A DNA stretch of 57,347 bases, the filler included, from Jimgerdemannia flammicorona (Eukaryota): the NCBI GenBank assembly GCA_003990765.1. It is 2 parts of 2 records of this genome, joined end to end, with 100 filler letters (N's around TTAATTAATTAA, not from the genome) between each part and the next. Parts side by side here need not be neighbours in the genome. Positions count along the whole stretch, not along the records: positions 1 to 28,636 come from RBNJ01000548.1; 1 more part is not named here. One strand, given 5' to 3'. The notes under the pieces were generated by a model that worked only from the letters and a program-made list of their open reading frames with translations, searched no databases and was not told where the DNA came from. The translations under genes were made by a program, and so were the position numbers. This document shows positions 1 through 50,836 of this stretch, piece by piece. Within the stretch, counting starts at the first letter, position 1, and each line of letters starts with the position of its first letter.

Positions 1-997
1 CCTCTTGTTCTTCTTCGTCAGTTTCAGTATCAGAGGGGGTTTCCTCAGGGGCAGGGTCTTGGAGTTCTTGGGTCTCCTCTTCAAAGACAGGAACTTCTTG
101 GGCTTCTTCTTGATTTGGTTCCCAAATAATGAGGTGTGAATTATGGCTGACAGGGTGGTGGGTGGTTGGGGTAGCTCCAACAGGTGTCTCTATGGTGATG
201 GGCGGTCCTTCAAATATCTCCATAAGACTCATTAAGTGGCCTTGATGGTTGTCTTAGAGTGGGGTGGTGTGGAAACCTGGTTGAGTAGGTTTGGTTTGTT
301 GGCTTCCTACGGCAATGCGGTTGCTGCCAATAGCATTGGCTACTTCAGATTCTATCCAGTCAGCATCTTCGGTTGATAGGCGGGAGAGGCTACCAGCTGT
401 TACTCCTTGCAAGTGTGCTATAGCCCAGGGAATATGGCGGAAGATTTGATGGACATGGAGGGCTCTCTTGATTAGCCGGCTAGTGGTTAACATTTCGGCA
501 ATGAGGTCTTCCTGGTCGCCTTCTTGAGTCTCATTGCGAAGGCGGTGTCCAATTTTGTAGTCATGCCAGAGGGTCATTCGTTCGGTAGTGTCTTTGAGCT
601 GTTGGGTCATTATATACCGGTAGTTGATAAAGTGTCCAAGGTCCTCAGTGTAGAAGTTCAAGTGTTCGGAAGTATCTGGGCACCAGATGGCCTTCTTGAT
701 AGCTTCAAAGATCAGAGTCTTTGGGCCAGGCAAAGGGATAGAGCGGCGGGAGGTCTGGTTGGTTCGGCGAATAGGAGGCAATGTGTGGTGGGTACCTGGT
801 TCTTTGGTGCCGATCCTTGAGGCGGAGTAGGGTTCCTTAAATAACGTGGTCTTCATTTTGACTCGGGTCATCTTGTCTTCTTTTGGTGAAATCACTTGAC
901 AGATTGGGCTGGTCACCAGTTATTGCACCATAATGTCATCTGATCTTGTGGTCACAGGGTACTCCGAATTTGGATAGGGTCAATTGTAGACGTCACA
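1..997 (-). mobile_element. LTR (family D), cut by the window edge, with accessory ORF in U3
   Basis: Minus strand begins TGTGAC at 997 at a sharp compositional boundary; contains an ORF homologous to those in the other LTRs. Confidence 0.6.
254..916 (-). CDS. LTR accessory protein (family D copy); the frame continues past the TAA at 254 into an acidic Pro/Glu tail running to the window edge
   Basis: LWHDYKIGHRL...RALHVHQIFRHIPWAIAHLQGV matches WQEYKIGNLL...AKKIHQIFRHAPWSIPNLEYV at 31 kb/50 kb; downstream frame reads WEPNQEEAQEVPVFEEETQELQDPAPEETPSDTETDEEEQE; homology suggests the real start is near 781. Confidence 0.65.
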   Translation of the reverse strand: MTSPICQVISPKEDKMTRVKMKTTLFKEPYSASRIGTKEPGTHHTLPPIRRTNQTSRRSIPLPGPKTLIFEAIKKAIWCPDTSEHLNFYTEDLGHFINYRYIMTQQLKDTTERMTLWHDYKIGHRLRNETQEGDQEDLIAEMLTTSRLIKRALHVHQIFRHIPWAIAHLQGVTAGSLSRLSTEDADWIESEVANAIGSNRIAVGSQQTKPTQPGFHTTPL

Positions 998-4099: not shown

Positions 4100-6094
4100 A
4101 ATGGATATCAGCATAAGTATACCTATTACAATAGTTACAATAATGATCATTCTAGTAGTGACAGTAGTAACAATAGTAAAAAGAATGATTTCTGTCTTTG
4201 ATAGTAAGAATTATGTCATATAGGTATACTATATGAAGAATCTACTTAAATAATATAGTTTGGAGGACTACTAGAAGCTATAGATATAAATAATAATATA
4301 TAATACTATGAAGAATTATAAATTACTAAGGGAGATTATGTTCACTCTTTCAAATATGCAAATGAAGCTCACAATCAATACTACAACAGTGAACAAGATC
4401 TGGGAGATTCTACATAATCACCATCAATAAGTTTTTGCATCCAACTAATTCTACTTAAAGGTATAACTGTTTAATCTTCAAATAAAGTTATCTAAAGAGA
4501 GTATCTAAGACTATATCAATTATATTGATAATCTAACAAATCAAGTAAATTTTCTTATAACTATGCTAGTAGATATCATCAAGAATGAAGACAAAGTCCT
4601 GGTCCTTATATATGGTCTTCCTAAGATATATAATATAGTTATTACCACTATGTAGGAATTCAGCAGATTATCAGACTATAAGCTCATCATTATGAGCCTC
4701 TTGAATAAAGAAACAAGGCTAAGTAGTAACAGTAATAATACTAATGAAACTTATAATGAAAAAGCCTTCTACAGCCAGTAAAGATGAGGCAGAGGCAAGC
4801 AAGACAAAGAATGAGATCAGTGTGATAATAAGTGTAACAGTCAGTATAATAATCAATAGCCAAATTCAATAGTAAATACTTCTACTATGATTAAGCATAA
4901 ATATTACAAACAAGACTACAACTATAAGAAGAAAAAGGATAGTTAAGGACAATAGTAGACAAATGTAGTATATATTAACAATAATAATAAAGATGGCAGT
5001 AGAGATCTATTTTTTACAAAAGTGATAACTTACTCATATAGGAGTAAATTTGGGAAATACTTTTACATTGATGAAAAATATTAACATAAGTACCAGCACT
5101 AATGTAAGCTATATACTGAGTAATACTTATATATGTAGCAAAGAAGTCTGGCTTATGAATTCTGATATAACATAACATATGACTATATACTATAAGTAGT
5201 TCTCTATATATGAGAAGTTTGAGTACTTCATACCCATTAAGTTAGGAGATAATAATGTAATATATGCTCAAGACAAGAGCAATATTAGTATATATTTATA
5301 CAAAAATGTCAATAAACTCTCAAGCACCTTTGTGGATATATTATATACATATATTAGATATAGATAAAAATCTCTTCTCAATAGGTCAGATAATTGCTTG
5401 AGAGAATAAAGAAGTCAATATATACCTAAATAGCATAATAGTGATCAATCTAAAGAATGATAAGAAGTTAATATATACATCAAAAAAGAGAAACTTATAT
5501 ATAATCAATAGTATATCAAGTAGTACATTATCTATATATTCTACAACTATAGCCAGAGAGGATCTCTGATATATAGTATAAATACTTAAGATATATCAGT
5601 AAGATGAGCTTGAAATAGATGACAAAGAGTAGTTCAGTAAGAGGATTACTAGTGAACTATATATCTCTGACTTCTTTAGTAATAATTGTACACCAAATAA
5701 GGCTTCCTGATAACTATTTTGGGAATAATTGAATCAAATAGCCAGAATTCTCAATATAATACATATGGATATCTGTGGTTCCATACATACCCCAATATAC
5801 TCTGAAAAGAGGTATTATATTATCTTTATTGATGATTATACTCATAAAGCCTATATATACTTCCTTATAGTGAAGAATGAGGTATTTAAAAGATTCCAAG
5901 AATTCAAAATAACTATGGAGAATGAAATGAGATATAAGATATAGGCTCTATACTCAGATAATAGTAAGAAATATATAAATAAAGCCTTTTGACACTTCTT
6001 AAAGAAGTATGGTTTCTAATACTCTATAACAGCTCCCTATATATCTCAGCAGAATGGTATGGCAGAATGCTTTAACTGAATGATAGTAGAAATG
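4100..6094 (+). pseudogene. Copia gag-protease-integrase, 5' part
   Basis: FDSKNYVI*VYYMKNLL (gag N-terminus), WLMNSDIT*HMT (decayed WxxDSGAxxHMT), IIHMDICGS...YYIIFIDDYTH (integrase core), QQNGMAECFN. Confidence 0.85.
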
Positions 6095-6878
6095 TATAAT
6101 AACTCTCACTTCTATCTCTCTCTTATCCTTTGGATAATTAGGGAAGTAAGACTATTACTTAGGGACTTAGTACATAATGTATACCAAGAAGCCTTTAGTT
6201 TGAGGAAGTACTTGCTTAAAAGTAATTGTAGCAGTAGTGCCTTCTATTTCAAAGATCTTTCTCTAGTTTGTCATATCTTTCAAGAGTCTTGTTCTTTGCT
6301 GTGCATAGACTGAATTCATCTTGGAATTTAGATTCAATGAGTTTACTTAAGTCTTTGGGGATTTATATATCAGTCTCAGTTCTGGCAAAGTTAGCTAGAC
6401 TTCTGAAGTTTAGTCAGAAATACTAGAGTCACTTAGATGTCATTACTAAGACTCAGAGGAATGTGTGTGTATGGGGGAGACTTGATTCTTATATCAAAGA
6501 CTACTTTATTTTAGATGGAAACTGGGGGGTATTTATACAAATTGGTCTGCGATTTCTGACTAAGTATGAGTTACTAATTTGGTAACTATAATGAGATTTA
6601 TAATCATGATCTTTGTCAGGTAGTTTTTGGCAAAAATAACTTTATGATCAGGATCTCAATTACTAGACAATAATCAGCTGCTATAGTAATAGTTACTGTG
6701 ATACTTATTGTCAGAGATAAACTGAATATTGTTTTTTACATCATTTTCTGCATTGTTCATTAATTCATCATTCATTATTCATATGTTATGCTCGATTGTA
6801 TGATGATGTCATTGCTCACTGGGTCACATGATCACTCATCATATCTCATCTATTTGTTTGCTCATTTATTCTATTACA
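6095..6878 (-). repeat. 3' LTR of Gypsy A (784 bp)
   Basis: Direct repeat of 16527-17133 plus 19413-19557; TATAAATACCCC on the minus strand near 6530. Confidence 0.92.
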
Positions 6879-6893
6879 TTCTTCCCTCCTTAG
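6879..6893 (-). promoter_or_regulatory. Polypurine tract of Gypsy A
   Basis: Minus strand AAGGAGGGAAGAA abuts the LTR start TGTAAT. Confidence 0.8.
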
Positions 6894-6913
6894 AAATCAA
6901 CATTCTCATTAAT

Positions 6914-7717: not shown

Positions 7718-7778
7718 TCTTGTCTTGTCTTTTCTTTGTGAGAAGAGAGGGATAAGAGTTGTAGGGTATTCTTGCCTT

Positions 7779-7790
7779 GGGTATTTATAC
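7779..7790 (-). promoter_or_regulatory. Putative internal TATA box for ORF3
   Basis: GTATAAATACCC, the same motif as the LTR TATA, about 65 nt upstream of the ORF3 ATG. Confidence 0.5.
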
Positions 7791-8390: not shown

Positions 8391-11300
8391 CTAGAGAGTG
8401 AGTATTTCCATATAGTCCTGGAGGGCTTCACATATATTTTTCAGAACTTCTTCTTTTTCCCAGATATGTAGCATCATGGGTGGGATAACCCTTCCACTTG
8501 ATGAGGAAGAACCACTTGATTGTTTTGGAGTATTTGCAGACCTTGTGGTCAAGTACTTTCTCAATTTTGAATTCCTTATAATCATTGATCCTAATTGAGA
8601 GTGGTGGTGAGACTGTATGCTCAGGGAATGGGTTCTCATAGTAGTTCACCAATTGGCTGATATGGAATACTGAGTGTACTTAGATATTGTGGGGAAGTTG
8701 CAACTTATAGTTGACTTTACTGATTTTTTCCACAATCTTATATGGTCCAATCCTTCTAGCATAGAGTTTCTTGGCTGGTTGTTGTACCAAGATATCTGGA
8801 TGGAGGTAATCTATTCTAAGCATAACCCTGTCACCAATATTGTAGGAGACTTCTCTTCATTTCAAGTTCGCATACTTGGTCTGATATGTAGTCTTATACT
8901 TCTATGAGAGCATCTCTTATCATTCAGGTAAGATCAGAAATGGTCTCAGCCAGATATTGGGCTGCTAGGACTGCTGATTTCACAGTAGTACTTGAGGTTC
9001 TTGGGTGTTGACTGTGGTTTAGGAAGAATGGAGTCTTCTTTTAGAGGTTTACTGACTGTTATTGTAAGCAAACTCAGCATGGGCTAGGTACTTGTCTCAA
9101 TTATTTTGCTTGTAACAGCAGAAGATGCTAAGCATCTGTTTGAGAGTCCTGTTGGTTTACTTAGTTTAACCATCAGTCTGAGGGTGGTAGACAGTAAAGA
9201 ACTTTAGCTTGATTCTATAGAGAGAGAAGAATGCCTTCCAGAAGTTGCTTGTGAACTTGGCATCTTGGTCAGATATAATAGTACTAGGTATACCATATAG
9301 CCTGAATACTTGGTTGAGGAAAATCTCAGCAATCTCTGGTGCCATGATAGTGGTTTTGATGGGTGCAAAATGGGCTTATTTATTTAGGTGGTCTATAAAT
9401 ACCACTATGGCATCCCATCCTGCTTTAGTCTTAGGGAGTTGAATAATAAAGTCTATTGAAATCTGATCTCAGTTGTGACTTGGAATTGGTAGCAGTTGCA
9501 GAAGTCCTACTAGTAGCTTATTATCACTTTTGAACCTTTGGCACATCTTGTATAAGGCCACAAAGTCTTTGAATCCTTGGTCATCTTTGGCCAGTAGAAC
9601 TCTCTTAAGAGGAGGTTGTAGGTCTTTTCAAAACCAGAGTGTCCTGCTGCAGGAGTATCATAGAGTTCCTGCATGATCTTGAGTTGCAGAGTATCATTAT
9701 TGAGTACAATCACTCTATTATAGTCCCTGTAGATAAGTCCATCATGGTAAGTGAATCTCTTAGATATTTGCCTCATGAGTTCTAGGACCTTGGCTTCTGG
9801 GTCTTAGCAGAATTAAAGGAATTTCATCAGGGGGCTATCCTGCTGGTAGCTATCCTTAATAATCTGGGTAAGGTCTCTAATTACCTCGACCATGAAGATA
9901 AGTTCATCTTCTATGTACCTGGAGAAACCATTAGCCACACAGTTGGTTTTGCCTGAGATATACTTGATTTCTATATCAAAGTTGGCAATGATTTCCATTC
10001 AGCAGGCTTGTCTGTAAGTTAGCATGGACTGTGTGTGAATGTACCACAGGGTATGGTGATCAGTATAGGCTATAAATAGTTGTCCTAGGAGGAAATAGCA
10101 CTATTTCTGGAGTACAGTAATAATGGCCAGGAGTTCCTTCTCATGGGTGGTATACTGGGTCTCAACTGGCTTAAGCTTTTGGAAAAGATAGACCACTGGG
10201 AAGTCTTCTTGGCTGAGTACTGCCCTAATGGCAATATCAGAGACATCTGTGATCAGAGTGAATGGTCTGGTAGGGTCAGGTGCAATTAGCACTGAGGTCT
10301 CAGTAAGGAGTCTCTTGAGATAGTCCATAGTCTGGATGTATTTAGGGGTCCATTCAGTCTTGATGTTTACTCCTTTACAGGCCAGACTGGTCAGTGGGGC
10401 TGTAATAGCAGAATATTCTTGGATAAACCTTTGATAATAATCAGCAATACCCAGAAAGCACTGGAGTAGCTTGAGGGTAGTAGGGATAGAAATATCCTTG
10501 AGAGCTGATACCTTTCAGAGGTCTACATTGATACCTTAAGTAGAGATGATATGTCCTAGGTACTCAATCTGGTCTTGATAGAACTTAAACTTACTTATTT
10601 TGATATAGAGCTAGTATTCTCACAGAAGGGTCAGTACTTGTCTGAGGTGGGTATAGTGCAACTCTACTGTTTTGCTGTAGATTAGTATATCATCAATATA
10701 AACAAGGATACAGATGTTGAGGAGTGGTCCAAAGATATCATTCATCAGATACTGAAATATTACTAGTACATTGGTTAAACCAAAAGATATGACTCAGAAC
10801 TAGTAGTATCTAAACTGTGTTCAGAAAGCTGTCTTTTCAATGTCCTTCTCATCAATGAGAATCTGGTGGTAGCCATTTTGCAAGTCTAGTAGAGAAAAGG
10901 TCTTGGCCTTGAAGATTTGATATAGCAACTCATCAATCCTAGGTAAGGCATACTGGTTCTTGATAGTAATTTTGTTGAGGGCTCTGTAGTCAATATACAT
11001 TCACAGAGAGCCATCCTTCTTCTTAACAAATAGAATAGGGGCTCCAAATGGGGAGCAGCTGGGTTCAATGTATTCTTAGACCAGTAGTTTGGTCAACTCA
11101 TTCTTGAGGGTCTTGAGTTCAGGTTGGGTCAGTTGGTAGGTACTCTTATATGGGGATTCAGATCCAGGAATGAGATTAATCCCATGTTGAATTTGATACT
11201 TGGGTAGAAGTCCTTGAGGATCTTGGAATACATCTTGGAATTCCTCAAATAGTTCTTGAGCCTCTGTTGGGATTGGACCACTTGTAGCTTCAGTGACTTC

Positions 11301-12042
11301 TTGTATAGTGTAGATGAAGTAGGTGTTTCCCTTTTTTCAGGAGAGTCTCTTCATTTGGATGGTAGAGATGATTTCAATTTCTTGATGACTGATGTCTTCC
11401 TGGGGTGTCAGGATGATCTTTCTTCTTTCATAAGTCAGGTTAACTTTGTTGGTCCTCTAGTTGATATCTGGGTTGTGTTGGGTCAGCCAGGCTTTTCCTA
11501 GAATAATGTCTTGTCCTGGGAGATCTACAATACTGAAGTCCAACTTCTCTTGATATTTGCCAATCTTGAGCAAGAGATCTTTGCAGATCTTGGTCAATGG
11601 TGCAGTTTTACCATCACCAAAGGTAACACTTCTTTTCTCAGTAGCTGGTCTGCTTTGGGCTCCAATCCTCTTGGCAGTCTTAGTACTGATATAGTTTTCA
11701 GTAACACCACTATCAAGCAAGATATTGATATTCTATCTGTAGACTTGGCTTATGAACTTGATGCAACTGTCCTCCTTCTTAATGGTGTTGAGCTCTTTAT
11801 TCTCATTGTTGTCCCAATTGCTATCAGTCTCCTCAAAGTCAGTTTCTCCCCATCCTTCACAAGGAGAGTTGCCTTGTTTGGATTTCTCAATCTGTTGGAC
11901 TTGACGCTTCTCAGATTGAATTTTGAAAACTTTAGAGAGGTATACATGATATTCACTAATATGTTCTATGTAGTACATTCAGATAGAATGAGGGCATCAT
12001 CCACATGGTGCATAATTATCTGCAATTCTCCTATACTAGTTT
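8391..12042 (-). pseudogene. pol: Gypsy A pol: protease, RT, RNase H, integrase, chromodomain
   Basis: MLDSGVTENYIS (PR), LVYIDDILIYS (RT), LITDVSDIAIRAVLSQ and THEKELLAI (RH), AAGHSGFEKTY (IN zinc finger), FKIEKVLDHK...FLIKWKGYP (chromodomain). Confidence 0.92.
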
Positions 12043-14105
12043 TGTAAGAGGGTTGCTTTTTAGGATAACTGTTACATAGTTCTGGAAAGGTTTTCTGGAT
12101 ATTCTGGATGTTCTGGAAGACTGTTTTCTTATGGTCAAGGTCAATTTCATATGGAGTACGTCCTCTACGCTTATTGATTTCAAGATCGGGTTGACGTCTC
12201 AACCAAAGTCCTCTTTTGGACTAGTTCTAGATGTTCAGAATTTTCTGTATTTCAGGAAGTTCAAGAAACTAAGACCAGCTTAGTTGAATTGGTGTATTGC
12301 TGTAGACAATACCCAATTAGGAAATTCGTGATGGGGTTAGGAGTGGGACCTAACAGGGAGTGGATTTACTTAAGAGTGGTTTGTGGGTTATTCAAATAGG
12401 TTTATTCGCTATTCATGATATTGCTATACTAGGAGTAGTTGTGTGAAGGGATATTGTGGGAAAGTATTCAGGAATGTTCTTGTGTATTCAAGTCTGAGAT
12501 TCTGAGGTCTGAGGGAGGGGGTATTTATACTAGTGAGGAGCTATCTGGACTATGCTAGATATGGATGTAGCACTAAGTGCCTTGCTGAGTCGGAATGCAG
12601 TCACGTAGTACAAGTATGATCTGATATATCAAGAGATCATCTAACTACTGAGTCAGTTCACAGTCACGTCATATAAGGCTAATCTAACTATACTATGACT
12701 GCTAGGCTATTTATGGGTTTAGGCACTGTCTGGATAGTCCTCGATGACATCACCATCGATTGTATCATCTCTGATGAAGTAGTTGTCTAGGAAGAGTGGT
12801 TCGCAGATTACTTCTCCTTGTTCGCTGAGGTAATAATATATTGGAACTTCATCTCTGTCTCATAAGATGGCATCATCAGTCTCATATGCTGGGAAAGGTG
12901 TTAGTGGGCAAAGGAGGGGTACATTATTTTCACTTTCATCAGATTCATTGTCTGCATACCTTCTGTAGGTTACAGCACTATGAGTCACAGGGTTATAGTA
13001 AGCTGGTGGCTGTGGTTCATGTCGCTCGTACTCGGGTGGTGGAGTGGTTGGTTCGATCTCGAGGGTTGTCTGAAGGTACAGGTTGTGTTCTCCAGTCTCT
13101 TCATTGTAGTTGAAGTAATCAGGGGTAAATGTGGGTTGGTATTTGTGCCAGTGGTCATTGTTCCAATAAGTCTCGTATATAGTTATGAACTGTTGTAAGT
13201 TCATCGGCAAGGTTGGCGGTGTGATCAGGGTTGGCAGAGATCCTTGGCTAGAGGTCATGTCGGCATCAGAGGGATCATTGTCTTCTACTTCATCTTCATC
13301 AAAGTGGATTATATCGTAGATGTCCTTCATGGCATATCCAACTTGGGGCATTTGCAGGATGTGATCATTGGGGTAGAGGAAGGTTCGGTCTGTGGTTTCA
13401 ATATACTCGAGGTACTTCTGGTTGAGTTCTTATATCATGTCATTGATTTGGCCATAGGACAGGGTAGCAACCATTTCGCTGGTAGTAACTCAGAGGTGAG
13501 GAATAAAGGTGCTATACTCATAGAAGAGTTCTCAATGTTTGCAGGCGATGAGCTTCTGGTGTTGAGACATCTGGATAATATCTGTATCATGGTGGTGTTC
13601 GACCATGTCTTCCAGGAGGTGGCCGATCTGGTAGTAGCTTGAGATTTGTCCGATTCGGTGGGCTTCGCTAAGCATATTCAGAGCATTCCATCAGGCTTCT
13701 ACGAAGTAGAGGGGTGCCAGACTATGGATATTCATGAGGAGCAGAGGGGGTGTGGCTTGGTTGACAATGGCATTCCAAATGTCAGCATAGATATGGTTGT
13801 AGATCTCAGTGGTCATGTTTGTGTTTGGAAGTTGTAGTTGTTATTTATTTGTTTTGGTTCTCTGATTCAACGCATCTCGGTGCTCGGTATATATGTATTT
13901 AGTCCTGATTGGTAAGATTCCATTTGTGTAAATCTTGTGTTCTGTGACTTTGTATTGACTCAGCTTTGTACACTGTGACTTCAGTTTGACTCAGCTTTAT
14001 GATCAAGCAGATGATTTCCAGATTTGTTCAGGGTTGCATGTGATTTCAGTGGCTTGTTCAGAGGGTGATGTATAATTTTGGTGGCTTGGGGGTTGTGCGC
14101 TTACA
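12043..14105 (-). mobile_element. 2063-bp solo LTR (family B) inserted in Gypsy A
   Basis: TGTAAG...CTTACA termini; perfect 5-bp TSD AGTTT; TATA near 12525 and AATAAA near 12400 on the minus strand; second copy at 28737-30009. Confidence 0.88.
12719..13816 (-). pseudogene. U3-encoded accessory ORF of LTR family B (366 codons, in-frame stops)
   Basis: IYADIWNAI...IGQISSYYQIGHLL...IACKH*ELFYEYSTFIPHL*V then a D/E/P/Y-rich tail; same frame as the listed ORF 12860-13351. Confidence 0.75.
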
Positions 14106-14157
14106 AGTTTTCATCATCTTCCTTCATGGTAGTGATCTTTTGACTGGAAGGTTTGTT

Positions 14158-14530
14158 GGCTGATCCAAACCCTTTCTTACTATAGTCTGTCTGGGAGAGC
14201 TTGGGAACTTCTTTAATGGTGAGATCTTGATGGATTTCTTCAATGATTGCTTAGGTAATTCTTTGGCCTACTTTGACTTCAAATGAGGTGTCTCCAAAAT
14301 TTCACAAGATAATACAGATTTCACCAGTAAATCTTTGGTCAACTACTCCTCCTTCTAGCCCAATATTGAACTCTTTGGCTAGGCTACTTCACTCAGTAAG
14401 TTGGATATATATATCTTTGAGAGCTTGTATTGCAATTCCTGTTCACACTATAGCATTGGTACTTGGTGGAATAGTGAGATCTTGGCTGCTATAGAGGTCA
14501 TATTCAGCATTGGTTGGGTGGGCCTTAGTG
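14158..14530 (-). pseudogene. dut: dUTPase domain of Gypsy A, between gag and protease
   Basis: All five motifs in order: AEYDL, E*SSLA, GVVDQRFTGEI, GQRIT*, KKGFGS. Confidence 0.88.
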
Positions 14531-14589
14531 GGGATGGTAGCCTTATACTATATCTTCTGTGCTTTGATGACATTCTCAGAGTTCTTCTT

Positions 14590-16420
14590 CTCTAGACCTT
14601 CTTCAATGACAGTAATGTTCTGGTTACTGGGTTTGCCTGATCTGTTTCTCTTCTTAGGGCATTTGAATGAGATGTGTCCTGTCTTCTTGCAGATAAAGCA
14701 CAATCCCTTTTTGTGGAGCTACTTCTTTTCATCCTTGGTGGGAGGTCTGGGTCCTCTGGGGTTTTGCTGGTTCCTTTGATCATTTCTTTGATCATATCCT
14801 TGGTCATTCCTTTGATCATTTCTCCTGGTAGGATTCCTCCTATCTTGGTTATCCTTTTTGTTTTCTTGATTTCATGGGGCTTGTATAGCAAGGATTTCAT
14901 GGACTCTTCTTTGTACTTGGGCAAAGTACTATAAATAGTGGGGACATCCTTGGGGAAGACCTTATTCCTTGATTTTCTGAGTAAGCCAGTCTGGTAGAGC
15001 TGCAAAAAAATAGTTGACTCTGGTATCATTGATGGCCAAATTATTCTCCTGGTAGGTAAGTCCAATGGTTTTGAGGTAGGCATCCATTCTAGTGGCAAAG
15101 GTCTCTAGATCCTCCTTGTCATTCTTGTGGAACTTCATTGGGACAGTTTGTTCCAAGTTTCTTATATATAGGCTATATTTTGGAATTTGGTCAGTAGCAA
15201 GGCCTTGAGTCCTGGGCCTGCTTCATAGTCATCCCAACCTGGTCTGTTATGGGCTTGTGCCTAGCCTGTAACTTGAGGGTGGTCTTCCCAGGTTACTGAG
15301 TGTTGTTCCAAGGTTTGCCAGAATTTGGCTGCTGTTCCAGTGAAGAATGTGGCTACTGTTTCCACTTGTGCTACTGAGGTAGCAAATAGCTATTGAAGGG
15401 TATTATTCTGGTTATTAGTGAGTATTCCTATAGACACTCAGTTATCATTTCATTGGTTTACTCGGTAGCCTGTGTCAACTATATTGATAAAGTTTTTGAT
15501 GTCACTGTTTTTTCCACTAAATGTTGGAATTTGCAAGGTCTTGGTTGGTTTGTTCTGTTCAGCAATCTGTCCTACTATCTTTGCTAGTGCTGCTAGCTGG
15601 GTAGTCAGTGCTACAATGTTGGCATCTACCATTGTATTGACTATTGGTAGTGAGTCTGTTAGGGTGGATTCTCCTAAAGATTGTTCTGCTTAGTGGGGTT
15701 GTGGCGCTGTTTGACTTGGGGTTACTTGATTCTCAGATATCAGATCAAAGAGTTCTGTGAGAGAGGGTAAACCAAACCTCTATATAGGTGGCTGGGTTGG
15801 TTCTGGGGTCTGATCTTCTTGACCTATAGTTCCTTGGTAAATTCCTAGACCTGCTATTCCTAGTTGGCTATTGTCAGACTGATAACCTGTAGAGTCTTTA
15901 TCTGACTCCCTTCTCTGATGAGATAGTATATCCTCATACTGACTAGATCCTTCAAAGAGGATATCAGTTTCTGACTGAGTAGATGGGCCTACTCCTTGTT
16001 CAGCAGTAGGGGATGGGTGGTCTGCTTGCTCATTCTCATATCTGATTATAGCAGAGGCATAGTATATAACTAGCCTGTAGTAGAGAGAGGTCTTGGTAGG
16101 TGTATGATGATATCTGTCAGAGGTAATCTACTTAGCAGCTGCTTCTCTTGCAGCAGGGAATGAGATATAATCTAAAAAATCCTGGGTGGCTACAGCAGTA
16201 GATTCTGGAGTCCTAGTGGTTCCAATATATCCACAGAGAAGTTCATAGAACCTATGGTGGCTGACTATATTTCTAAGTCCTGGGTGATAAGTCCTAAAGG
16301 CCTGGTATAGATCCTTATAAGCCTGGTCAATTATAAGCTAGTAGGTCTCTAGATCTGTGGTTTCTTGGTATGTACCACCTGGTCCTAATAGTAAGGGCTT
16401 CTCTGGCTCTAGTTTGGGGA
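14590..16420 (-). pseudogene. gag: Gypsy A gag
   Basis: CCHC knuckle GLCFICKKTGHISFKCP at about 14655-14710; LQIPTFSGKNSDIKNF capsid-like segment; start approximate. Confidence 0.8.
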
Positions 16421-16510
16421 TCTACAGTTGGTTCTGGAGATTACTCCTGTCTAAGGTTAGTCTTGTTCCAACTTCAAGAGTGTGTTCTTGATACCATCTT
16501 GGCTTGGTAA

Positions 16511-16523: not shown

Positions 16524-17424
16524 AGTTGTAATAACTCTCACTTCTACCCCTCTCTTATCCTTTGGATAATTAGGGAAGTAAGGCTATTACTTAGGGACTT
16601 AGTACACAATGTGTACCAAGAAGCCTTCAGTTTGAGAAAGTGCTCACTTAAAAGTAATTGTAGTAGCAGTACCTTCTATTTCAAAGATCTTTCTCTGGTT
16701 TGCCCTATCTTTTAAGAGTCTTGTTCTTTGTTGTACACAGACTGAATTTGCTTTGGAATTTAGGTTCAATAGGTTTACTTAAGTTTTTGGGGATTTATAT
16801 ACTGATCTCAGTTCTGGCAGAAGTTAGCTAGGCTTCTAGAGTTTAGTTAGAAACACTAAAGTCACTTAGATGTCATTACTAAGACTCGGGAGAATGTGTA
16901 TATATGGGGGAAACTTAATTATTATATTAAGGACTGAACTAAAACTACTTTATTTTGAATGGAAACTGGGGGGTATTTATACAAGTTGGTCCACAATTTC
17001 TGACTAAGTATGAGTGACTAATTTGGTAACTATAATGAGGTTTGTGATTAGGATCTTAATTACTAGGTAATGATCAGCTACTATGGTAATAGTTGCTGTG
17101 GTGCCAATTGTCAGAGATAAACTGAATATCGTTCCCCCTTTCTCTGCTATCTTACTGGTTACAATGGTTTGGTAGACAACCTTCTGAGTCCACTTTCCAC
17201 AATTATTACCCCCTCTACCTCAGGTTGGTTTGCTGTACCTATTGCAGGGCAGTGGGAGGAAGGCAATGGTGATGAGTTGCCCCTTTATCAGTGTCAGATC
17301 AGTGTCTTCTCCACTTTTTCACAGTTTCTGGTACCTTTGGCTGTGTCTGGAGTGCATCCATTTTGGTGTGGCACTTTCTTCCTTTTGCCAGTACCAACAA
17401 GGTGTTGTCTTGGTGTATCTCGGG

Positions 17425-17848
17425 TAGTGCTCCCAAACAAGTCAAATCAATTCAAATCGAATTGAATTGAGGGTTAAATGAGTCAAATCGAATTGGGGAT
17501 TTTTCAATTCAAATCAATTCAAATCGAATCAAAAGTCAAATCGAATTGAGGGTCTGATTTGAACCCTAATTTTCAAAATGTAATAACTCAGCATAAACTC
17601 ATCCAAATCTAACATACTTTAGCTTGTTAGAATCACATTAATATGGTGAATCTAACAAGCTAAAATACGTTAAATTTGGATGAGTTTTCGTCGAGTTATT
17701 ACATTTTGAAAATTAAGGTTCGAATCGAACTTCGAATCGAATTGGACCTTTGATTCGATTCAAATCAAATCGAATTGGACCCTTGATTCGATCGAATCAA
17801 ATCGAGTTTGGGCCAAATTTGATTTGATTTGATTCGTTGGGAGCACTA
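17425..17848. mobile_element. hAT-type foldback MITE
   Basis: TIRs TAGTGCTCCC...GGGAGCACTA; 8-bp TSD ATCTCGGG/GTCTCAGG; mostly palindromic with TCGAAT subterminal repeats. Confidence 0.85.
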
Positions 17849-28736: not shown

Positions 28737-30009
28737 ACTTCGATGAAGACGAAGCAGAAGACAATGATCCCTCCGACGCCGACATGACCTCAAGTCAAGA
28801 ATCCCTGCCAACCCTGATCACGCCGCCAACCTTGCCGATGAACTTACAACAGTTCATAACTGTCTACGAGACTTATTGGGACAATGACCACTGGCACGAA
28901 TACCAACCCGCGTTCACCCCCGATTACTTCAATTACAATGAAGAGACCGGAGAACACAATCTGTACCTCCAGACAACCCTCGAGATCGAACCCACAACTC
29001 CACCACCTGAGTACGAACGATACGAACTACAGCCGCCAACTTACTACAACCCTGCAACTCATAGTGCTGTAACCTATAGAAGGTACGCAGACAGCGAATC
29101 CGATGAAAGCGAAGACAACACACCCATCCTTCGCCCACCAACACCTTATCCAGCATACGAGACAGATGATGCTATCCTGTGGGATGGTGACGAAGTTCCA
29201 ATGTATTACTACCTCAGTGAACAAGGAGAAGTAATCCGCGAACCACTCTTCCTAGATGACTACTTCATCAGAGATGATGCAATCGATGGTGATGTCATCG
29301 AAGACTACCCAGATAGTGCCTAAACCTATAAATAGTCTAGCAGTCATAGTATAGATAGAATAGCCTTGTACAACGTGACTGTGAACTGACTCAGCAGTCA
29401 GACGATCTCTTGACATGTCAGATCACTATTGTACTACGTGACTGCATTCCGACTCAGCAAAGCACTAAGTGCTACATCCACATTTAGCATAGTCCAGATA
29501 GCCCCTCACTAGTATAAATACCCCCTCCCCCAGACCTCAGAATCTCAGACTTGAACACTTGAACAATCCGAACACAACTCCTGAGCACTTCTCCACAATA
29601 CCCCTTCACACAAATACTCCTAGTATAGCAATATCATGAATAGCGAATAAACCTATTTCATAACCCACAAACCACTCTTAAGTAAATCCGCTCCCTGTTA
29701 GGTCCTACTCCTAACCCCATCACGAAATTTCCTAATTGGGTATTGTCTGCAGCGATACGCCAATTCAACTAAGCTGGTCTTAGTTTCTTGAACTTCCTGA
29801 AATACGGAAAATCCTGAACATCCAGAACTAGTCCGGAAAAGGACTTTGGTTGAGACGTCAACCCGATCTTGAAATCAATAAGCGTAGAGGACGTACTCCA
29901 TACGAAATTGATCTTGACCATAAGAAAACGGTCTTCCAGAATATCCAGAACATCCAGAAAACCCTTCTAGAACTACGTAACGGTCACCCTAAAAAGTAAC
30001 CCTCTTACA
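28737..30009 (+). mobile_element. LTR family B, second less-mutated copy, cut by the gap
   Basis: Reverse complement of about 12043-13305; ends CTCTTACA; TATAAATA near 29513, AATAAA near 29646. Confidence 0.9.
28784..29323 (+). CDS. C-terminal acidic part of the LTR family B accessory ORF (open; 5' end lies in the gap)
   Basis: Near-identical to the 12719-13260 translation but without stops. Confidence 0.7.
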   Translation: MTSSQESLPTLITPPTLPMNLQQFITVYETYWDNDHWHEYQPAFTPDYFNYNEETGEHNLYLQTTLEIEPTTPPPEYERYELQPPTYYNPATHSAVTYRRYADSESDESEDNTPILRPPTPYPAYETDDAILWDGDEVPMYYYLSEQGEVIREPLFLDDYFIRDDAIDGDVIEDYPDSA

Positions 30010-30590: not shown

Positions 30591-30975
30591 CTCAGCAACA
30601 CCCTCAGATATATTTCCCCAACACAATGCTGGATCCTATCCAAATCTCTAACTTTATATCATGAAATTCCAATATAATTGCAAAAGCATATCATATACAT
30701 TTTATTATAAAATAAGATTCAAAACATAACTATTATAATGATGACTCCAGAATGATGATATCAGTATAGAAGACAGTCTTTCCTTACAAGTCACCAGATT
30801 GGAACACAAGAAGATCATATGGTATATGAGATGAGCAATGATGACCAACTGTGAGTCATTGTGACCACAGTATGGATATCTTAAGGAATATAAAAGAAGG
30901 ATCAAGGAACTGCAGTAGCAGCAACCAACAAGACCCACCAATCCCAAAATAGCTCAAAGATTTACCATAAATGAA

Positions 30976-31835
30976 ATACCTGCTGTTCACTAAACCTCAA
31001 GGTCAAGAAACTACCAAGGCACCTCAGTTGAAGAATGGATGTTCCAAGACATCAGAAGAGCCATGAGGACCTGCTTAGAAGAACTCTTAGTGTCAACCTG
31101 AGTACTAGTGACCCTTATCATTATATCCTCTACTGCCATAAAATGGAAACAAGAATCACTATTGCTACCGAATGTCTCCAAATATGGCAGGAGTACAAAA
31201 TAGGAAACCTCCTCTGTTGGGAGTTTTTACAGGCCAGCACTCAAGAGCTACAAGATGCCACTCTCATAGATATATATGAAATAAGGACAGCTAAGAAGAT
31301 CTATCAGATCTTCAGGCATGCACTATGATTGATCCCCAACTTGGAGTATGTTAGAGTCTCAGACTTCAGAGACCTATCAGCCTGGTATATCAATGCACTA
31401 GAAGCTAGGGTGGCTACAGAAGCCCAGTCCACTATCACCCTTGATAGTGATGAAGTAGAAGACTTCTGGCATCCCATCCTCCAGGACAACCTAGACTAAT
31501 TCCTACAAGAATTGATCTCAGTATTCCAAGGCCCAAGTATCCAGATTAGACCTCCTCAAGATCTCACATTTGTCCTCTATTTTGTAGAAGAGAACCTCAT
31601 AGACTAGAGAGCCCCAGACCTCCTTGTTCCTGCTACTGCCAAATGTGATGATATCATCAGTGATGATGTCATCCTGCATGACATACATGAGATATGTAAC
31701 ATACATGAGATGTGTGACATATACAAAACATGCAACCTATATAATGATGATGAATTCGCAGACCTCATCTCCTTTGAAGACATCCTGACCTCTGATGAGG
31801 ATGAAGCCCCTATGGTCTTGAACATTCTGCTCTAA
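30976..31835 (+). pseudogene. Family C accessory ORF, decayed
   Basis: TECLQIWQEYKIGNLL...AKKIYQIFRHAL; ATG mutated to ATA; colinear with 49796-50623. Confidence 0.8.
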
Positions 31836-31844
31836 AGTCCTTTG

Positions 31845-32008
31845 GTGACACTGAATTATACCAGCATTGGCATTCTGATATGACACTGAATTATGCCAGC
31901 ACCAGCATTCTGATGTGACACTGAATTATACCAGCATTGGCATTCTGATATGACACTGAATTATGCCAGCACCAGCATTCTGATGTGACACTGAATTATA
32001 CCAGCATC
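31845..32008 (+). repeat. 34-bp tandem repeat (about 5 units) in U3
   Basis: TGACACTGAATTATRCCAGCAYYRGCATTCTGAT repeated with alternating variants. Confidence 0.9.
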
Positions 32009-33008
32009 CTGAACCTGTGCAACCATTAGTGCCGACCCTAGAACTTAGCAGTTTTTCCTGTCCTGGTATTTTATTTTAGTTATTGGAATTTATATTTAGC
32101 TTTATATCTTAGCAACCATTGAATTATATTTTGTATAAATACCCCTCTTATTTCCTCTGAAATAAAGTCAGTCTACTCAGTGCAATACACACATTTCCTT
32201 GCAAGCAATCTAAGAGATAACAAGACAGTTTAAAGATAAGAAGTTTGAGGACTATAAGACCTTGGGAAGGCACTCCAATAAGAACTTGTTTATAACAAAC
32301 TTGAGTTAGTCTAAGAGATACACCTTGAAGAGAATCTGGCATATTTGAAGCACTACGTGACACTATATAAAGCTCATATCGTCTCTCCTCGAATTGGCGG
32401 ATATTACCCGTGGCGAATGACATTCGGATTATGGGACCCCCATGCGGATTTGATTCAGCCTGTTTCCGGTGTGGTCGTAAATGCGTGAGGTTATGGCGGC
32501 GAAGGAAATTATCGAAAGTCAAAATGTTTGCACTCTTGACAGGAGCTGACAATTTGTAAAATTTTGGAATTACGCATAAAATAGGTTCCAAAGCAAAGCC
32601 ATAAATGCGTTGTTTCTTTGTTGATTCGAGCAGCCCACTCTGGTCTATGATGCTACCGGTTCGCAAGACATGAAAGCACTGCATTTGCTCAACATGCCGT
32701 TTTGTTATCGCATTATGCTAATGTTTCAAGTGGCAAACAAAATCACATCCCTCAAACAAAGCTACTGATACGCGTGTGCCTATGGTGATAATTGGAAACA
32801 CCACAAAGGTATCTGATACATTATAGAAACATGGTATAACAAATAACTCTGTCGTTCTCTACCAAACTTGTTTACAGCCTATTGATGAAACGGTGTGCTG
32901 CGATATGTGGCATCCCGTCGTTTTTTTCAATAATATAAAACCACTTTCTGCTCCTTTGACGGAAACATTCCCCAAGAAGGTATTCCCCAAGATCCTTACA
33001 CTCCAAGT

Positions 33009-49318: not shown

Positions 49319-50836
49319 TGTCACGTAGTGGTCGCTGAGTCCTTCAAATACGCCAGATTCTCTTCAAGGTGTATCTCTTAGACTAACTCAAGTTTGTTAT
49401 AAGCAAGTTCTTATTGGAGTGCTTTCCCAAGGTCTTATAGTCCTCAAACTTCTTATCTTAACTGTCTTGTTATCTCTTAGATTGCTTGCAAGGAAGTGTG
49501 TATAAGTGAAACCGGAACTTGACTTTATTTCAGAGGAAATAAGAGGGGTATTTATACAAAATATAATTCAATGGTTGCTAAGATATAAAGCTAAATATAA
49601 ATTCCAATAACTAAAACTACTAAGTTCCAGGGCTGGTATTGTTGGTTGTACAGGTTCAGGATGCTGGCATTATCCAGTATTACATCAAAATACCGGTGCT
49701 GGAACAATTTCGCGTCACCTCAGAATACCGGTGCTGGTATTATCTAGTGTTACATGAGAATACCGGTGCTGGCATTATCCAGTGTAACAAAGAACTTAGA
49801 GCAGAAAGTTCAGGACCATGGGGGCTTCATCATTATCATCATCATTGAAGGAGATGAGATCCACGAATTCGTCATGCAGGTCACGCGTCTCGCATACTTC
49901 AGGTATGTCGATGTCGCGCAGGATGACGTCATCGATGACGTCATCATGTTCGATAGTGGCGGGAAAATCGGGGACAAGATCTGGAGCTCTCCAGTCTATG
50001 AGGTTCTCTTCCACAAAATAGGGGACAAATGTAGGGTCTTGGGGGGATCTAACTCAGATGCTTGGGCCTTGGAATACTGAGATCAATCCTTGCAGGAATT
50101 GGTCTGGGTTGTCCTGAAGGATGGGGTGCTAGAAGTCTTCTACTTCTTCACTGTTGAGAGTGATAGTGGACTGGGCTTCTATAGCCACCCTGGCTTCTAG
50201 TGCATTGATGCGGCGAGATGACAGGTCTCTGAAATCTGAGACTCTAACATACTCCAGGTTGGGAATCGACCATGGTGCATGCCTGAAGATCTGATGGATC
50301 TTCTTAGCTGTCCTCATTTCACGTATATCCATGGGAGTGGCATCTTGTAGCTCTTGGGTGCTGGCCTGTGGGAACTCCCGGCAGAGGAGGTTTTCTATTT
50401 CGTACTCCTGCTACATTTGAAGGCATTCAGTGGTGATGGTGATCCTTGTTTCCATTTCACGGCGGTAGAGGATAAAGTGATAGGGGTCTGCAGTACCCAG
50501 GTAGATACTAGGAGTCCTTCTTGAGCGGGTCTCCATGGCTCTTCTGATGTCTTGGAACATCCTTTCTTCAACCGAGGTGCCTTGGTGGTTCCTTGACCTT
50601 GAGGTTTGGCGGGTGGCAGGCATTTCGTTTGTGGTAAATCTTTGAGCTATTTTGGGATTGGTGGTTCTTGTTGGTTGCTGCTACTGCGGTTTCTTGATCC
50701 TTCTTTTATATTCTTCAGGATGCTTGTGCTGTAGTCACAATGACTCACAGTTGGTCATCATTGCTCATCTTGTATGCCATATGATCTTCTTGTGCTTCAA
50801 TCTGGTGGATGTCATTATTCTGGGGTCACCATTACA
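49319..50836 (-). mobile_element. LTR family C, second less-mutated copy
   Basis: TGTAAT...GTGACA on the minus strand; reverse complement of 30734-32362; flanks TTAT/ATAT are an imperfect TSD. Confidence 0.88.
49796..50623 (-). pseudogene. Family C accessory ORF (276 codons, three transition-derived stops)
   Basis: Listed ORFs 50411-50623, 50129-50332 and 49796-50014 share one frame; the stops are TGG>TAG and CGA>TGA type. Confidence 0.85.

What the first reader, a model, noticed from the sequence alone, without database searches (positions are those of the whole stretch)
12043..14105. Solo LTRs as self-contained expression cassettes: a whole gene inside U3
The 2063-bp unit has TG..CA ends, a perfect 5-bp TSD and no evident terminal direct repeats, so it behaves as one LTR. 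Its order is TATA-like box (about 13890), 366-codon ORF, canonical TATA (about 12525), AATAAA. Family C (30734-32362, TSD CTAT) has the same layout. In family A the homolog lies outside the LTR, just upstream of the PPT, so the LTR boundary has moved across the gene. U3-encoded genes are known from MMTV (sag) and partly HIV (nef). Inference: the gene survives LTR-LTR recombination, so every solo LTR could supply the protein in trans.
Basis: partly seen in the sequence, partly recalled or inferred. Interest (0 to 1): 0.8.

Follow-up and report, generated by a model that had tools for sequence, protein, structure and literature searches.

The report
Accessory gene inside solo LTRs
A 2-kb retrotransposon end-piece (most likely a solo LTR) sits inside an older element and holds a whole accessory gene, once under selection but now broken, with its own promoter-like sequence, a layout known from a few retroviruses and seldom described in retrotransposons.

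Summary
Window 12043-14105 (sense = minus strand) is a 2063-bp insertion with TGTAAG..CTTACA ends and an AGTTT duplication. It lies in the gag region of an old chromovirus, element A. Contigs from two other runs join the flanks without it. It has no internal direct repeats, primer-binding site or polypurine tract, so it behaves as one LTR.

Its order is: enhancer-like motif pair, TATA-like box, 365-codon frame, second motif pair, core TATA GTATAAATACCC (shared with A's LTRs), AATAAA.

The frame is not open here; it has five in-frame stops. It was a real gene: between copies B1 and B2, dN/dS is 0.10 in frame against 1.28 and 1.47 in the shifted frames.

Families C and D have the same layout. 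Their ORF is a clear homolog of an ORF that in A lies just upstream of the polypurine tract, outside both A LTRs. The B ORF's homology to that family is only marginal.

No full-length B, C or D element could be reached, and no transcription was shown. Five of the six copies in the window are visibly broken, and the sixth is cut off. The "expression cassette in every solo LTR" idea is therefore untested and does not hold for these copies.

Best reading: a solo LTR with an accessory gene in U3 (confidence 0.6). The protein is an orphan.

The parts
12043..14105 (-). B1 unit: LTR-like insertion of 2063 bp, TGTAAG..CTTACA ends
   Evidence: empty-site contigs
12038..12042 (.). Target-site duplication AGTTT, left copy
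14106..14110 (.). Target-site duplication AGTTT, right copy
13944..13994 (+). Two copies of the bipartite motif GTGAC-N8-GACTCAG upstream of the ORF, antisense to it (13944-13963, 13975-13994), inside a 31-bp tandem repeat
   Evidence: 6 matches in the window, all in B copies; 0.03 expected
13887..13894 (-). TATA-like box ATATATAC, about 70 bp upstream of the ATG (putative ORF promoter P1)
   Evidence: motif only, function inferred
12722..13816 (-). Decayed 365-codon accessory reading frame with 5 in-frame stops; terminal TAA at 12721-12719
   Evidence: selection shown; relatives P0003 and P0004
12585..12667 (-). Two copies of the same bipartite motif in sense orientation (12667-12648, 12604-12585), between ORF stop and core TATA
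12519..12530 (-). Core TATA GTATAAATACCC, the same 12-mer as in the LTRs of A and C (putative LTR promoter P2)
   Evidence: 7 matches; 0.38 expected
12401..12406 (-). AATAAA polyadenylation-type signal; 12400-12043 would be the rest of R plus U5
   Evidence: motif only
28737..30009 (+). B2: second B copy, 89.4% identical to 12043-13305. It is cut at its 5' side by the N44-TTAATTAATTAA-N44 joiner and abuts an A-like RT fragment (30020-30590)
30734..32362 (+). C1 unit: CTAT duplication, TATA-like 30889-30894, ORF about 31039-31836, 35-bp repeats, core TATA 32133-32144, AATAAA 32161-32166
49319..50836 (-). C2 unit: same ends as C1 at another locus; ORF 50560-49799
1..997 (-). D unit, runs off the window start. 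5' end TGTGACGTC at 997 abuts AT-rich host DNA; TATA-like 843-835. ORF homologous to the A and C ORF; P0007 (80% identical) is intact at 325 aa
6917..7717 (-). Element A: accessory ORF (C/D type, 7 stops in this frame) between the chromodomain end of pol and the polypurine tract; its own GTATAAATACCC stands at 7790-7779
6879..6891 (-). Element A: polypurine tract AAGGAGGGAAGAA, directly before the LTR start TGTAATAG
6093..6878 (-). Element A: 3' LTR (786 bp), core TATA 6538-6527
16527..17133 (-). Element A: 3' part of the 5' LTR, followed by the primer-binding site TGGTAGCAATGG (16523-16512). The first 166 bp or so of this LTR lie at 19392-19557, behind a 2.26-kb poly(A)-ended insertion

Best explanation
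The 2063-bp unit is a solo LTR of a Ty3/gypsy (chromovirus-type) retrotransposon family, B. It was left after LTR-LTR recombination and is nested in the gag region of an older chromovirus, A.

Its U3 is unusually long, about 1575 bp, because it holds a complete accessory gene. Two copies of an enhancer-like bipartite motif and a TATA-like box (P1) precede a 365-codon ORF. Two more copies of the motif, in the opposite orientation, and the family's core TATA (P2) follow it. AATAAA and U5 come last.

In a full-length element the gene would sit at the 3' end of the genomic RNA and be copied into both LTRs. A P1 transcript could end at the LTR's own poly(A) signal.

Shown here: the insertion, its ends, the absence of internal LTR, primer-binding-site or polypurine-tract signals, the motif order, and past purifying selection on the ORF.

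Inferred: that it is an LTR of a full-length element, that P1 and P2 fire, and what the protein does.

The protein has no known relatives outside this retrotransposon group. My guess, at low confidence, is a trans-acting factor of the element. Its features are a helical N-terminal part and a long acidic, Pro/Tyr-rich tail. The copy in the window is dead: it has five stops and has lost CpG sites.
For: LTR anatomy:
- TG..CA ends with a 6-bp inverted repeat, and a 5-bp duplication.
- Empty-site contigs in 2 of 4 laid runs, X2 and X3, from two studies.
- No terminal direct repeats.
- No primer-binding-site-like match on the sense strand inside the unit. The only close match in the window is A's own, at 16523-16512.
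- No purine run of 9 or more between ORF and TATA in 0 of 4 B and C copies, against 1 of 1 in A.
- 0 of 4 readable 5' flanks (B1, C1, C2, D) are purine tracts. 0 of 4 readable 3' flanks (B1, B2, C1, C2) start like a primer-binding site.

Link to real LTRs:
- The 12-mer GTATAAATACCC occurs 7 times (0.38 expected), always in sense: in both A LTRs, before A's ORF, and in B1, B2, C1 and C2.
- C's TATA-to-AATAAA core aligns with A's LTR, score 52 against a shuffle maximum of 38.
- Ends recur at independent loci: C1 and C2 share both ends with unrelated flanks.

The gene is real:
- dN/dS between B1 and B2 is 0.10 over 193 codons, against 1.28 and 1.47 in the shifted sense frames. Differences by codon position are 15/8/47 of 70.
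- C1 against C2 gives 0.24.
- Open relatives exist: P0003 (247 aa, 64% identical) and P0004 (128 aa, 88%), and B2 is open over its 194 visible codons.

Regulatory symmetry: GTGAC-N(7-8)-GACTCAG occurs 6 times in the window (0.03 expected), only in B copies. In B1 there are two before the ORF in antisense and two after it in sense, each pair 55-140 bp upstream of a TATA.

Contrast case: in A the C/D-type ORF lies outside both LTRs.
Against: - No full-length B, C or D element was seen in the window. None could be fetched: two metagenome scans, three viral protein scans plus one viral pattern scan, and two genome-collection scans found nothing. The window's genome is not held. The defining test, the same unit at both ends of gag-pol, is therefore open.
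- All five ORF-bearing units in the window are solo or cut off, and none is full length. Frequent recombination of long LTRs fits this, but so does a unit that is not an LTR.
- The B ORF is not significantly similar to the A, C and D ORF. The 'same gene, moved boundary' argument therefore rests on C and D. For B it rests on position only.
- P1 and P2 are motif matches only.
- The 5' 289 bp of B shows no significant similarity to the 5' parts of C or D, or to A's region upstream of its ORF.
Confidence: 0.6

Rival explanations
1. LTR-length dimorphism. The family's RNA genome carries the ORF between pol and the LTR core, as A does. The long 'LTR' arises only when plus-strand DNA synthesis is primed upstream of the ORF. 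One lineage would then leave both short and ORF-bearing long LTRs, and the state would be set anew in each replication cycle rather than inherited.
For: A has a purine-rich tract followed by TGT (7973-7930) upstream of its ORF, as well as its real polypurine tract at 6891-6879. A's ORF has the LTR's own 12-mer TATA in front of it.
Against: B and C copies have no purine run of 9 or more between ORF and core TATA (0 of 4), so they have no site for a short LTR. A's upstream tract is 17 bases away from the candidate TGTATAACC. Its similarity to the C and D 5' ends is not above shuffles: 28 of 500 and 128 of 500 shuffles reach the observed score. A's 5' LTR is short.
Confidence: 0.1
2. A non-autonomous or internally deleted derivative. 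The unit is not one LTR but a remnant (5' terminal piece + accessory gene + 3' LTR), copied in trans by A-like elements.
For: No autonomous partner was seen for B, C or D. The units lie among A-like elements: B1 is in A's gag and B2 is next to an A-like RT fragment.
Against: There are no terminal direct repeats, no primer-binding-site-like sequence on the sense strand and no polypurine tract. Without these a unit cannot be reverse-transcribed and integrated. Yet the same ends recur at independent loci, with a clean 5-bp duplication and an empty site.
Confidence: 0.12
3. Not LTR-derived. A cut-and-paste DNA transposon with TGT..ACA ends and a 4-5-bp duplication (a Ginger-like class, recalled from memory), with the ORF as its transposase.
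For: Short terminal inverted repeat, a 5-bp duplication and a single ORF.
Against: The ORF has no integrase or transposase domain in Pfam at E up to 1 and no PDB relative. The inverted repeat is only 6 bp. The core TATA/AATAAA module is that of A's LTR. The C/D-type ORF sits inside retrotransposon A in sense, next to its polypurine tract.
Confidence: 0.04

Closest known systems
MMTV superantigen gene (sag) in the U3 of the LTR
   Same: A whole protein-coding ORF lies inside the LTR, upstream of the LTR core promoter, so each integrated copy carries it at both ends. [quoted passage not shown]
   Different: MMTV is an enveloped vertebrate retrovirus. Here the setting is a chromodomain-bearing Ty3/gypsy retrotransposon. 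No sequence similarity: Pfam gave no family hit for the ORFs. Here the ORF has its own TATA-like box and enhancer-like repeats. How sag is transcribed is recalled from memory and was not checked.
Foamy-virus accessory genes (tas/bet) with an internal promoter, and HIV/SIV nef overlapping U3 (all recalled from memory)
   Same: Accessory genes sit at the 3' end of the genome and reach into U3. In foamy viruses a second, internal promoter drives the accessory gene, and its product activates both promoters. The layout here is comparable: two TATA elements, each preceded by the same bipartite motif. A's ORF is preceded by the LTR's own 12-mer TATA.
   Different: There the overlap with U3 is partial; here the whole gene is inside. 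Transactivation is only my guess for this protein. No similarity was detected.
Additional ORFs between pol and the 3' LTR of plant Ty3/gypsy elements (Retand/Tat lineage)
   Same: Element A has this layout: an extra ORF of unknown function in the pol-to-3' LTR region. The abstract of PMC11963269 reports long POL-3'LTR regions with conserved extra ORFs and suggests a regulatory role.
   Different: Those ORFs are antisense, carry the TRP28 domain and stay outside the LTR in non-chromovirus elements (abstract). Here the ORF is in sense, has no Pfam domain, and in B, C and D lies inside the LTR-like unit.
Cassandra, Helenus and Ajax: LTR elements with small-RNA genes inside their LTRs
   Same: A gene with its own promoter is carried inside the LTR and so is present in every LTR copy. 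[quoted passage not shown]
   Different: Those are short RNA-gene-like sequences in non-autonomous elements. Here it is a gene for a protein of 250-365 residues with a TATA-type promoter.

Membership tests
LTR (solo LTR) of a Ty3/gypsy retrotransposon | TG..CA termini with a short terminal inverted repeat | tested here: met
   TGTAAG..CTTACA. A's LTR reads TGTAAT..TTATACA. C2 reads TGTAAT..GTGACA.
LTR (solo LTR) of a Ty3/gypsy retrotransposon | 4-6-bp target-site duplication and a demonstrable empty site | tested here: met
   AGTTT on both sides. Contigs of X2 and X3 join the flanks, skipping 2068 and 2071 bases.
LTR (solo LTR) of a Ty3/gypsy retrotransposon | U3-R-U5 order: promoter, then poly(A) signal, in one orientation | tested here: met
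   By motif only. Core TATA at 12530-12519 is identical to that of A's LTRs; AATAAA at 12406-12401. Transcription was not tested.
LTR (solo LTR) of a Ty3/gypsy retrotransposon | The same unit occurs as a direct pair around gag-pol, with a primer-binding site after the 5' copy and a polypurine tract before the 3' copy | tested here: inconclusive
   There is no full-length B, C or D in the window. The genome is not held. Eight collection scans found nothing.
Non-autonomous LTR element (TRIM / LARD / TR-GAG type) | Own pair of terminal direct repeats with a primer-binding site and polypurine tract between them | tested here: not met
Accessory ORF family of elements A, C and D ('ORFx') | Significant sequence similarity to the A, C and D proteins | tested here: inconclusive
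   A, C and D match each other at E 2e-13 to 2e-34. B against them: tblastn finds nothing. hhalign E is 0.062, 0.0053 and 0.0086, and the score of 26.3 equals the best of 40 column shuffles, 26.2. Position and build are the same.
MMTV Sag | Sequence membership in the Sag protein family | tested here: not met
   No Pfam family at E up to 1, other than a sub-threshold DUF5338 match. That Pfam holds a Sag model is recalled from memory.
DNA transposon with integrase-like transposase (Ginger type) | DDE/integrase domain in the ORF and long terminal inverted repeats | tested here: not met
   No domain was found. The inverted repeat is 6 bp.

The most novel reading that the evidence does not exclude
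In this chromovirus group the LTR boundary, set by where plus-strand priming starts, has moved across a selected accessory gene. In some lineages (B, C, D) the gene, with its own promoter, is duplicated to both ends of every new copy. It then stays behind in each solo LTR as a free-standing gene.

The protein could be a trans-acting regulator of the shared promoter module. In B that module is GTGAC-N7/8-GACTCAG plus TATA, present before and after the gene. Young solo LTRs would then feed back on active elements of the family. Solo LTRs would be a hidden source of protein-coding genes that repeat masking removes from annotation.
Probability: 0.15. Interest if true: 0.8.

Novelty: new variant of a known kind. 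Interest (0 to 1): 0.55.

Why it matters
LTRs are normally treated as non-coding control regions, and solo LTRs as inert scars or enhancers.

A retrotransposon lineage that keeps a complete, selected gene with its own promoter inside U3 would differ in several ways. It would double that gene at each insertion. It would leave coding-capable relics after recombination. It would hide a gene family from annotation pipelines that mask LTRs.

The side-by-side presence of a relative with the gene just outside the LTR (A) gives a natural pair for studying how LTR boundaries move. The case also extends a layout known from a few complex retroviruses to a simple chromodomain retrotransposon.

In this window the copies are decayed, so any present-day function must be sought in younger copies elsewhere in the genome.

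Tried and rejected
1. Alternative genetic code (TGA as sense) for the broken frame: rejected. One of the five stops is TAA. Relatives that cover the TGA positions carry more than one kind of sense codon there. The B1-B2 differences are dominated by transitions (108 of 123), with C/G in B2 against T/A in B1 at 77 sites. This fits decay, not recoding.

2. Expression: no RNA holder was listed for the unit. One laid run (X12) is only guessed to be RNA. Nothing can be said about transcription.

3. Depth in the laid contigs: the bin over B's TATA-to-end part is 1.5-5 times deeper than the ORF bins in X1, X2 and X3, and more than 100 times deeper in X12. The tool states that contig depth cannot rank parts of a gene, so I do not use it. 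It remains unexplained.

4. One X3 contig of depth 2 joins 14056 to 12413 through 17 letters that end like the unit's terminus. It may be a B copy nested in another B. It is too weak to count.

5. Full-length relatives elsewhere. Protein scans found none: metagenome contigs (one search failed on the alignment), viral contigs and genome contigs. Exact 20-mer scans found none. No longer fused proteins were found: 0 of 1095 candidates. This is weak evidence only.

6. Function of the protein.
- Pfam: 0 families for 5 relatives; only a sub-threshold DUF5338 match for B1.
- PDB profile searches: 0 hits at E up to 10.
- ESM Atlas: no usable hit for P0007. For P0003 the structure matches were all TM 0.30 or less, on a model with pLDDT 0.39.
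- The AlphaFold model of P0007 with 7 sequences had mean pLDDT 41.8. I therefore ran no fold search. Only the helix pattern of residues 20-151 is noted.
- Two PPxY-like strings in B1 and B2 are absent from P0003, so I dropped a late-domain idea.

7. Duplication of the LTR promoter in front of the ORF: beyond the 12-mer TATA in A, there is no similarity between the region before the ORF and the region after it, in A, B or C.

8. The idea that A keeps an old LTR start upstream of its ORF: MAFFT put A's TGTATAACC under the C and D termini. Local alignments are not above shuffles, so this is not supported.

9. A target-site duplication for element A itself could not be found. The element is old; its LTRs are 81% identical.

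The window's genome is not held.

11. Literature. Four full-text searches listed no paper whose title or abstract describes a protein-coding ORF inside the LTR of a non-retroviral LTR retrotransposon. 'LTR ORF' hits were mostly MMTV. I read only the listings, one passage of PMC5408684 (not relevant) and the abstract of PMC11963269. This is not proof of absence.
Full report
WHAT IS THERE

The stretch 12043-14105 is a discrete 2063-bp unit whose sense strand is the minus strand. It starts TGTAAGCGCAC (14105-14095) and ends CCCTCTTACA (12052-12043). These are TG..CA ends with a 6-bp inverted repeat, and AGTTT flanks the unit on both sides.

It lies inside an old Ty3/gypsy element, A, on the same strand. 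Pfam finds aspartyl protease at 11460-11732, RNase H at 10104-10514 and the integrase zinc domain at 9513-9803. A chromodomain-like stretch follows near 8580-8430 (the name rests on my reading of the translation). The unit therefore splits A's gag region.

The insertion is confirmed from outside the window. When the contigs of four public runs were laid on 1-16500, one contig of X2 lay on 11908-12033 and 14102-14230, skipping 2068 bases (the unit plus one copy of the duplication). One contig of X3 skipped 12035-14107. These are related A copies without the insert. They come from runs of two studies and were laid at a likeness threshold of 80%.

IT BEHAVES AS ONE LTR

- The 289 bp before the ORF and the 676 bp after it share nothing. 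The best local score is 21, against 20.8 +/- 2.8 in 200 shuffles. The repeat finder shows only short local repeats.
- No primer-binding-site-like string lies on the sense strand of the unit. The only close match in the window is A's own TGGTAGCAATGG at 16523-16512.
- There is no purine run of 9 or more between ORF and TATA.
- Downstream of the ORF stands GTATAAATACCC (12530-12519). This 12-mer occurs 7 times in the window against 0.38 expected, always in element sense: in both LTRs of A, in front of A's extra ORF, and in B1, B2, C1 and C2.
- AATAAA follows at 12406-12401, and about 360 bp more run to the CA end.

The 3' quarter is thus a normal LTR core. The 5' three quarters, about 1575 bp, would be U3.

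THE READING FRAME

From ATG 13816 to TAA 12721-12719 there are 365 codons. The frame is broken by five in-frame stops, at codons 42, 95, 109, 129 and 319.

A second copy, B2 (28737-30009, plus strand, 89.4% identical over 1274 columns), is open through its 194 visible codons. It is cut off by N44-TTAATTAATTAA-N44, which looks like a contig joiner.

Searches of two very large protein collections gave only two true relatives. P0003 has 247 aa, is 64% identical and covers codons 115-364. P0004 has 128 aa, is 88% identical and covers codons 1-128. Both are open. At the positions of the stops that they cover, the relatives have sense codons.

The B1-B2 differences are 108 transitions out of 123, with C/G in B2 against T/A in B1 at 77 sites. 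CpG observed/expected is 0.43 in B1 and 0.84 in B2. B1 is therefore a decayed copy, not a recoded gene.

The frame was a real gene. Over the 193 comparable codons dN/dS is 0.10, against 1.28 and 1.47 in the two shifted sense frames. The 70 differences fall 15/8/47 on codon positions 1/2/3. CpG decay inflates synonymous change somewhat, but it cannot produce this pattern. Most of the divergence between the two copies therefore arose while the ORF was under purifying selection in replicating elements.

REGULATORY LAYOUT

The bipartite motif GTGAC-N(7-8)-GACTCAG occurs six times in the window (0.03 expected), only in B copies. In B1 two copies stand upstream of the ORF in antisense (13944-13963, 13975-13994). 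Two stand downstream in sense (12667-12648, 12604-12585).

Each pair lies 55-140 bp upstream of a TATA element: the TATA-like ATATATAC at 13894-13887, and the core TATA. The ORF therefore has in front of it a module of the same kind as the LTR promoter behind it. That these are promoters is inference from motifs. The GACTCAG half resembles an AP-1/Gcn4-type site (recalled from memory).

FAMILIES A, C AND D

C1 (30734-32362, CTAT on both sides) and C2 (49319-50836) share both ends at unrelated loci. C2 begins TGTAATGG; C1 begins TATAATGA.

Both carry a frame of about 254 codons between a TATA-like box and the core TATA, with different stops in each copy. C1 has 3 stops and a frameshift; C2 has 3 stops. 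dN/dS between them is 0.24.

This ORF is clearly homologous to two others:
- A decayed ORF in element A at 7717-6917: tblastn E 1e-28 to 2e-34.
- A fourth copy, D, at the window start (ORF from about 778 to 1, minus strand): E 2e-13 to 3e-16.

D's 5' end, TGTGACGTC at 997, abuts AT-rich host DNA, not pol. Its closest relative, P0007, is an intact 325-aa protein, 80% identical.

In A the ORF ends 25 bp before the polypurine tract AAGGAGGGAAGAA (6891-6879). The LTR start TGTAATAG follows directly, so A's 3' LTR is 6878-6093.

A's 5' LTR is 16527-17133 (81% identical), followed by the primer-binding site. Its first 166 bp or so lie at 19392-19557, behind a 2.26-kb insertion. That insertion ends in an A-run and is flanked by a 19-21-bp duplication. 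Beyond 19557 there is AT-rich DNA and no ORF.

In A, then, the gene is outside both LTRs. In C and D it is inside a unit with LTR ends, and C has no polypurine tract between ORF and TATA. C's TATA-to-AATAAA core aligns with A's LTR, score 52 against a shuffle maximum of 38.

First, the B ORF is not demonstrably the same gene. tblastn finds no match outside the B copies. Profile-profile comparison gives E 0.062, 0.0053 and 0.0086 for a collinear N-terminal alignment of 97-118 columns. My control shows that the score of 26.3 is matched by the best of 40 column-shuffled profiles (26.2) and nearly matched by reversed profiles (23.5). B shares position, orientation and build with the others: a helical N-terminal part, then a long acidic tail rich in Pro and Tyr. 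It does not share provable ancestry.

Second, no full-length B, C or D element could be examined. None is in the window, the genome is not held, and eight scans of public collections found nothing. 'Both LTRs contain the ORF' therefore remains inference.

Third, none of the six ORF copies in the window is an intact full-length frame. Five are visibly broken, and B2 is open only over the part that the contig break leaves. No evidence of transcription was obtained.

WHAT THE PROTEIN IS

It is unknown.
- There is no Pfam family and no PDB relative by profile.
- There is no usable Atlas neighbour.
- No longer fused form turned up among 1095 candidates.
- The AlphaFold model is of low confidence, mean pLDDT 41.8. 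It shows only helices over residues 20-151 of P0007 and no structure beyond.

The gene was kept under selection in replicating lineages, so it presumably serves the element. A trans-acting regulator of the shared promoter module is my guess, by analogy with complex retroviruses (recalled from memory). It is untested.

MECHANISM, WITH STATUS

Shown:
- integrase-type insertion of a 2-kb unit;
- the absence of the internal signals that an independent element would need;
- an LTR core shared with a bona fide LTR;
- a selected ORF upstream of that core;
- the homologous ORF outside the LTR in a related family.

Inferred:
- the unit is what LTR-LTR recombination left of a full-length element;
- in such elements the polypurine tract lies upstream of the ORF, so reverse transcription copies the gene into both LTRs;
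- the upstream TATA-like box can drive a short mRNA that ends at the LTR's poly(A) signal.

Long LTRs of 1.5-2 kb should recombine readily. That would fit five solo or cut-off units and no full-length one in this window, but this is not evidence.

RIVALS

- Length dimorphism through alternative plus-strand priming: 0.10.
- A non-autonomous derivative: 0.12. It is weakened by the lack of repeats, primer-binding site and polypurine tract.
- A DNA transposon: 0.04.
- My own idea that A keeps an old LTR start upstream of its ORF did not survive a shuffle control.

COMPARISON AND NOVELTY

The closest functional parallel is MMTV sag in U3 (abstract of PMC2118998 in the listing). Next come foamy-virus and lentivirus accessory genes that reach into U3 (recalled from memory).

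Element A resembles the plant Retand case of extra ORFs between pol and the 3' LTR (abstract of PMC11963269). Cassandra-type elements carry RNA genes in their LTRs (abstract start of PMC10886601, listing).

Four full-text searches listed no description of a complete protein-coding gene inside the LTR of a non-retroviral LTR retrotransposon. I read listings only, so this is no proof.

I rate it a new variant of a known kind, with interest 0.55. The structure and the selection signal are solid and unusual. The key claim, membership in both LTRs of a full element, and any present-day activity remain open.

Noticed in passing
window 28637-28736: N44 + TTAATTAATTAA + N44. This looks like an artificial contig joiner (stops in all six frames). 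The window would then be two contigs placed end to end, and B2 is cut by a contig end, not by biology.
   Followed up: partly
window 17134-19391: A 2.26-kb insertion in the 5' LTR of element A. It ends in an A-run preceded by AATAAA and is flanked by a 19-21-bp duplication (17113-17133 / 19392-19412). That suggests a poly(A) retroposon. It holds two large palindromes (17505-17777, 18308-18871), and no ORF with a Pfam hit was seen.
   Followed up: partly
window 54685-55092 (-): A histone H3 reading frame (Pfam Histone, E 1.4e-39). It has His or Cys at several places where canonical H3, as I recall it, has Arg. It looks like a CpG-decayed H3 pseudogene rather than a centromeric variant.
   Followed up: partly
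window 2001-5900 and 6879-12042: Extreme CpG depletion: observed/expected is 0.02 in AT-rich host DNA (24% G+C) and in A's internal region. It is 0.06 in C1, 0.43 in B1, 0.46 in C2 and 0.84 in B2. This works as a rough age scale and hints at heavy cytosine methylation or a RIP-like process.
   Followed up: partly
window 21635-28636: A G+C-rich block (about 50%) with strong G-over-C skew (0.36-0.52). It holds an RVT_1 reverse-transcriptase fragment at 26642-27088 (+) and a 1.14-kb tandem duplication (21635-22760 / 22778-23906, 78%). It may be a non-LTR retroelement; it was not classified.
   Followed up: no
window 35800-48000: An array of diverged Kelch-repeat gene copies on the minus strand (for example 40115-41641 and 42296-42850), with a 27-bp tandem repeat at 40620-40938.
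   Followed up: no
window 30734-32362 vs 49319-50836: C1 and C2 are 97-100% identical from about 60 bp before the core TATA to near the 3' end, but only about 80% identical over the ORF part. Either the CpG-poor R-U5 part escapes decay, or the LTRs are recombinant. This is unexplained.
   Followed up: no
window 7779-7790 (-): Element A has the exact 12-mer core TATA of its LTR a second time, about 60 bp upstream of its extra ORF. This is an internal promoter-like site of the same kind as the LTR promoter.
   Followed up: partly
window 20881-21171 (+): A Ty1/copia reverse-transcriptase fragment (RVT_2, E 2.5e-8) just beyond element A.
   Followed up: no
window 12101-12650 in laid runs: Contig depth over B's TATA-to-end part exceeds that over the ORF 1.5-5 fold in X1, X2 and X3, and more than 100 fold in X12. 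The tool warns that such depth cannot rank parts. It may point to relatives with the same R-U5 but no ORF.
   Followed up: no
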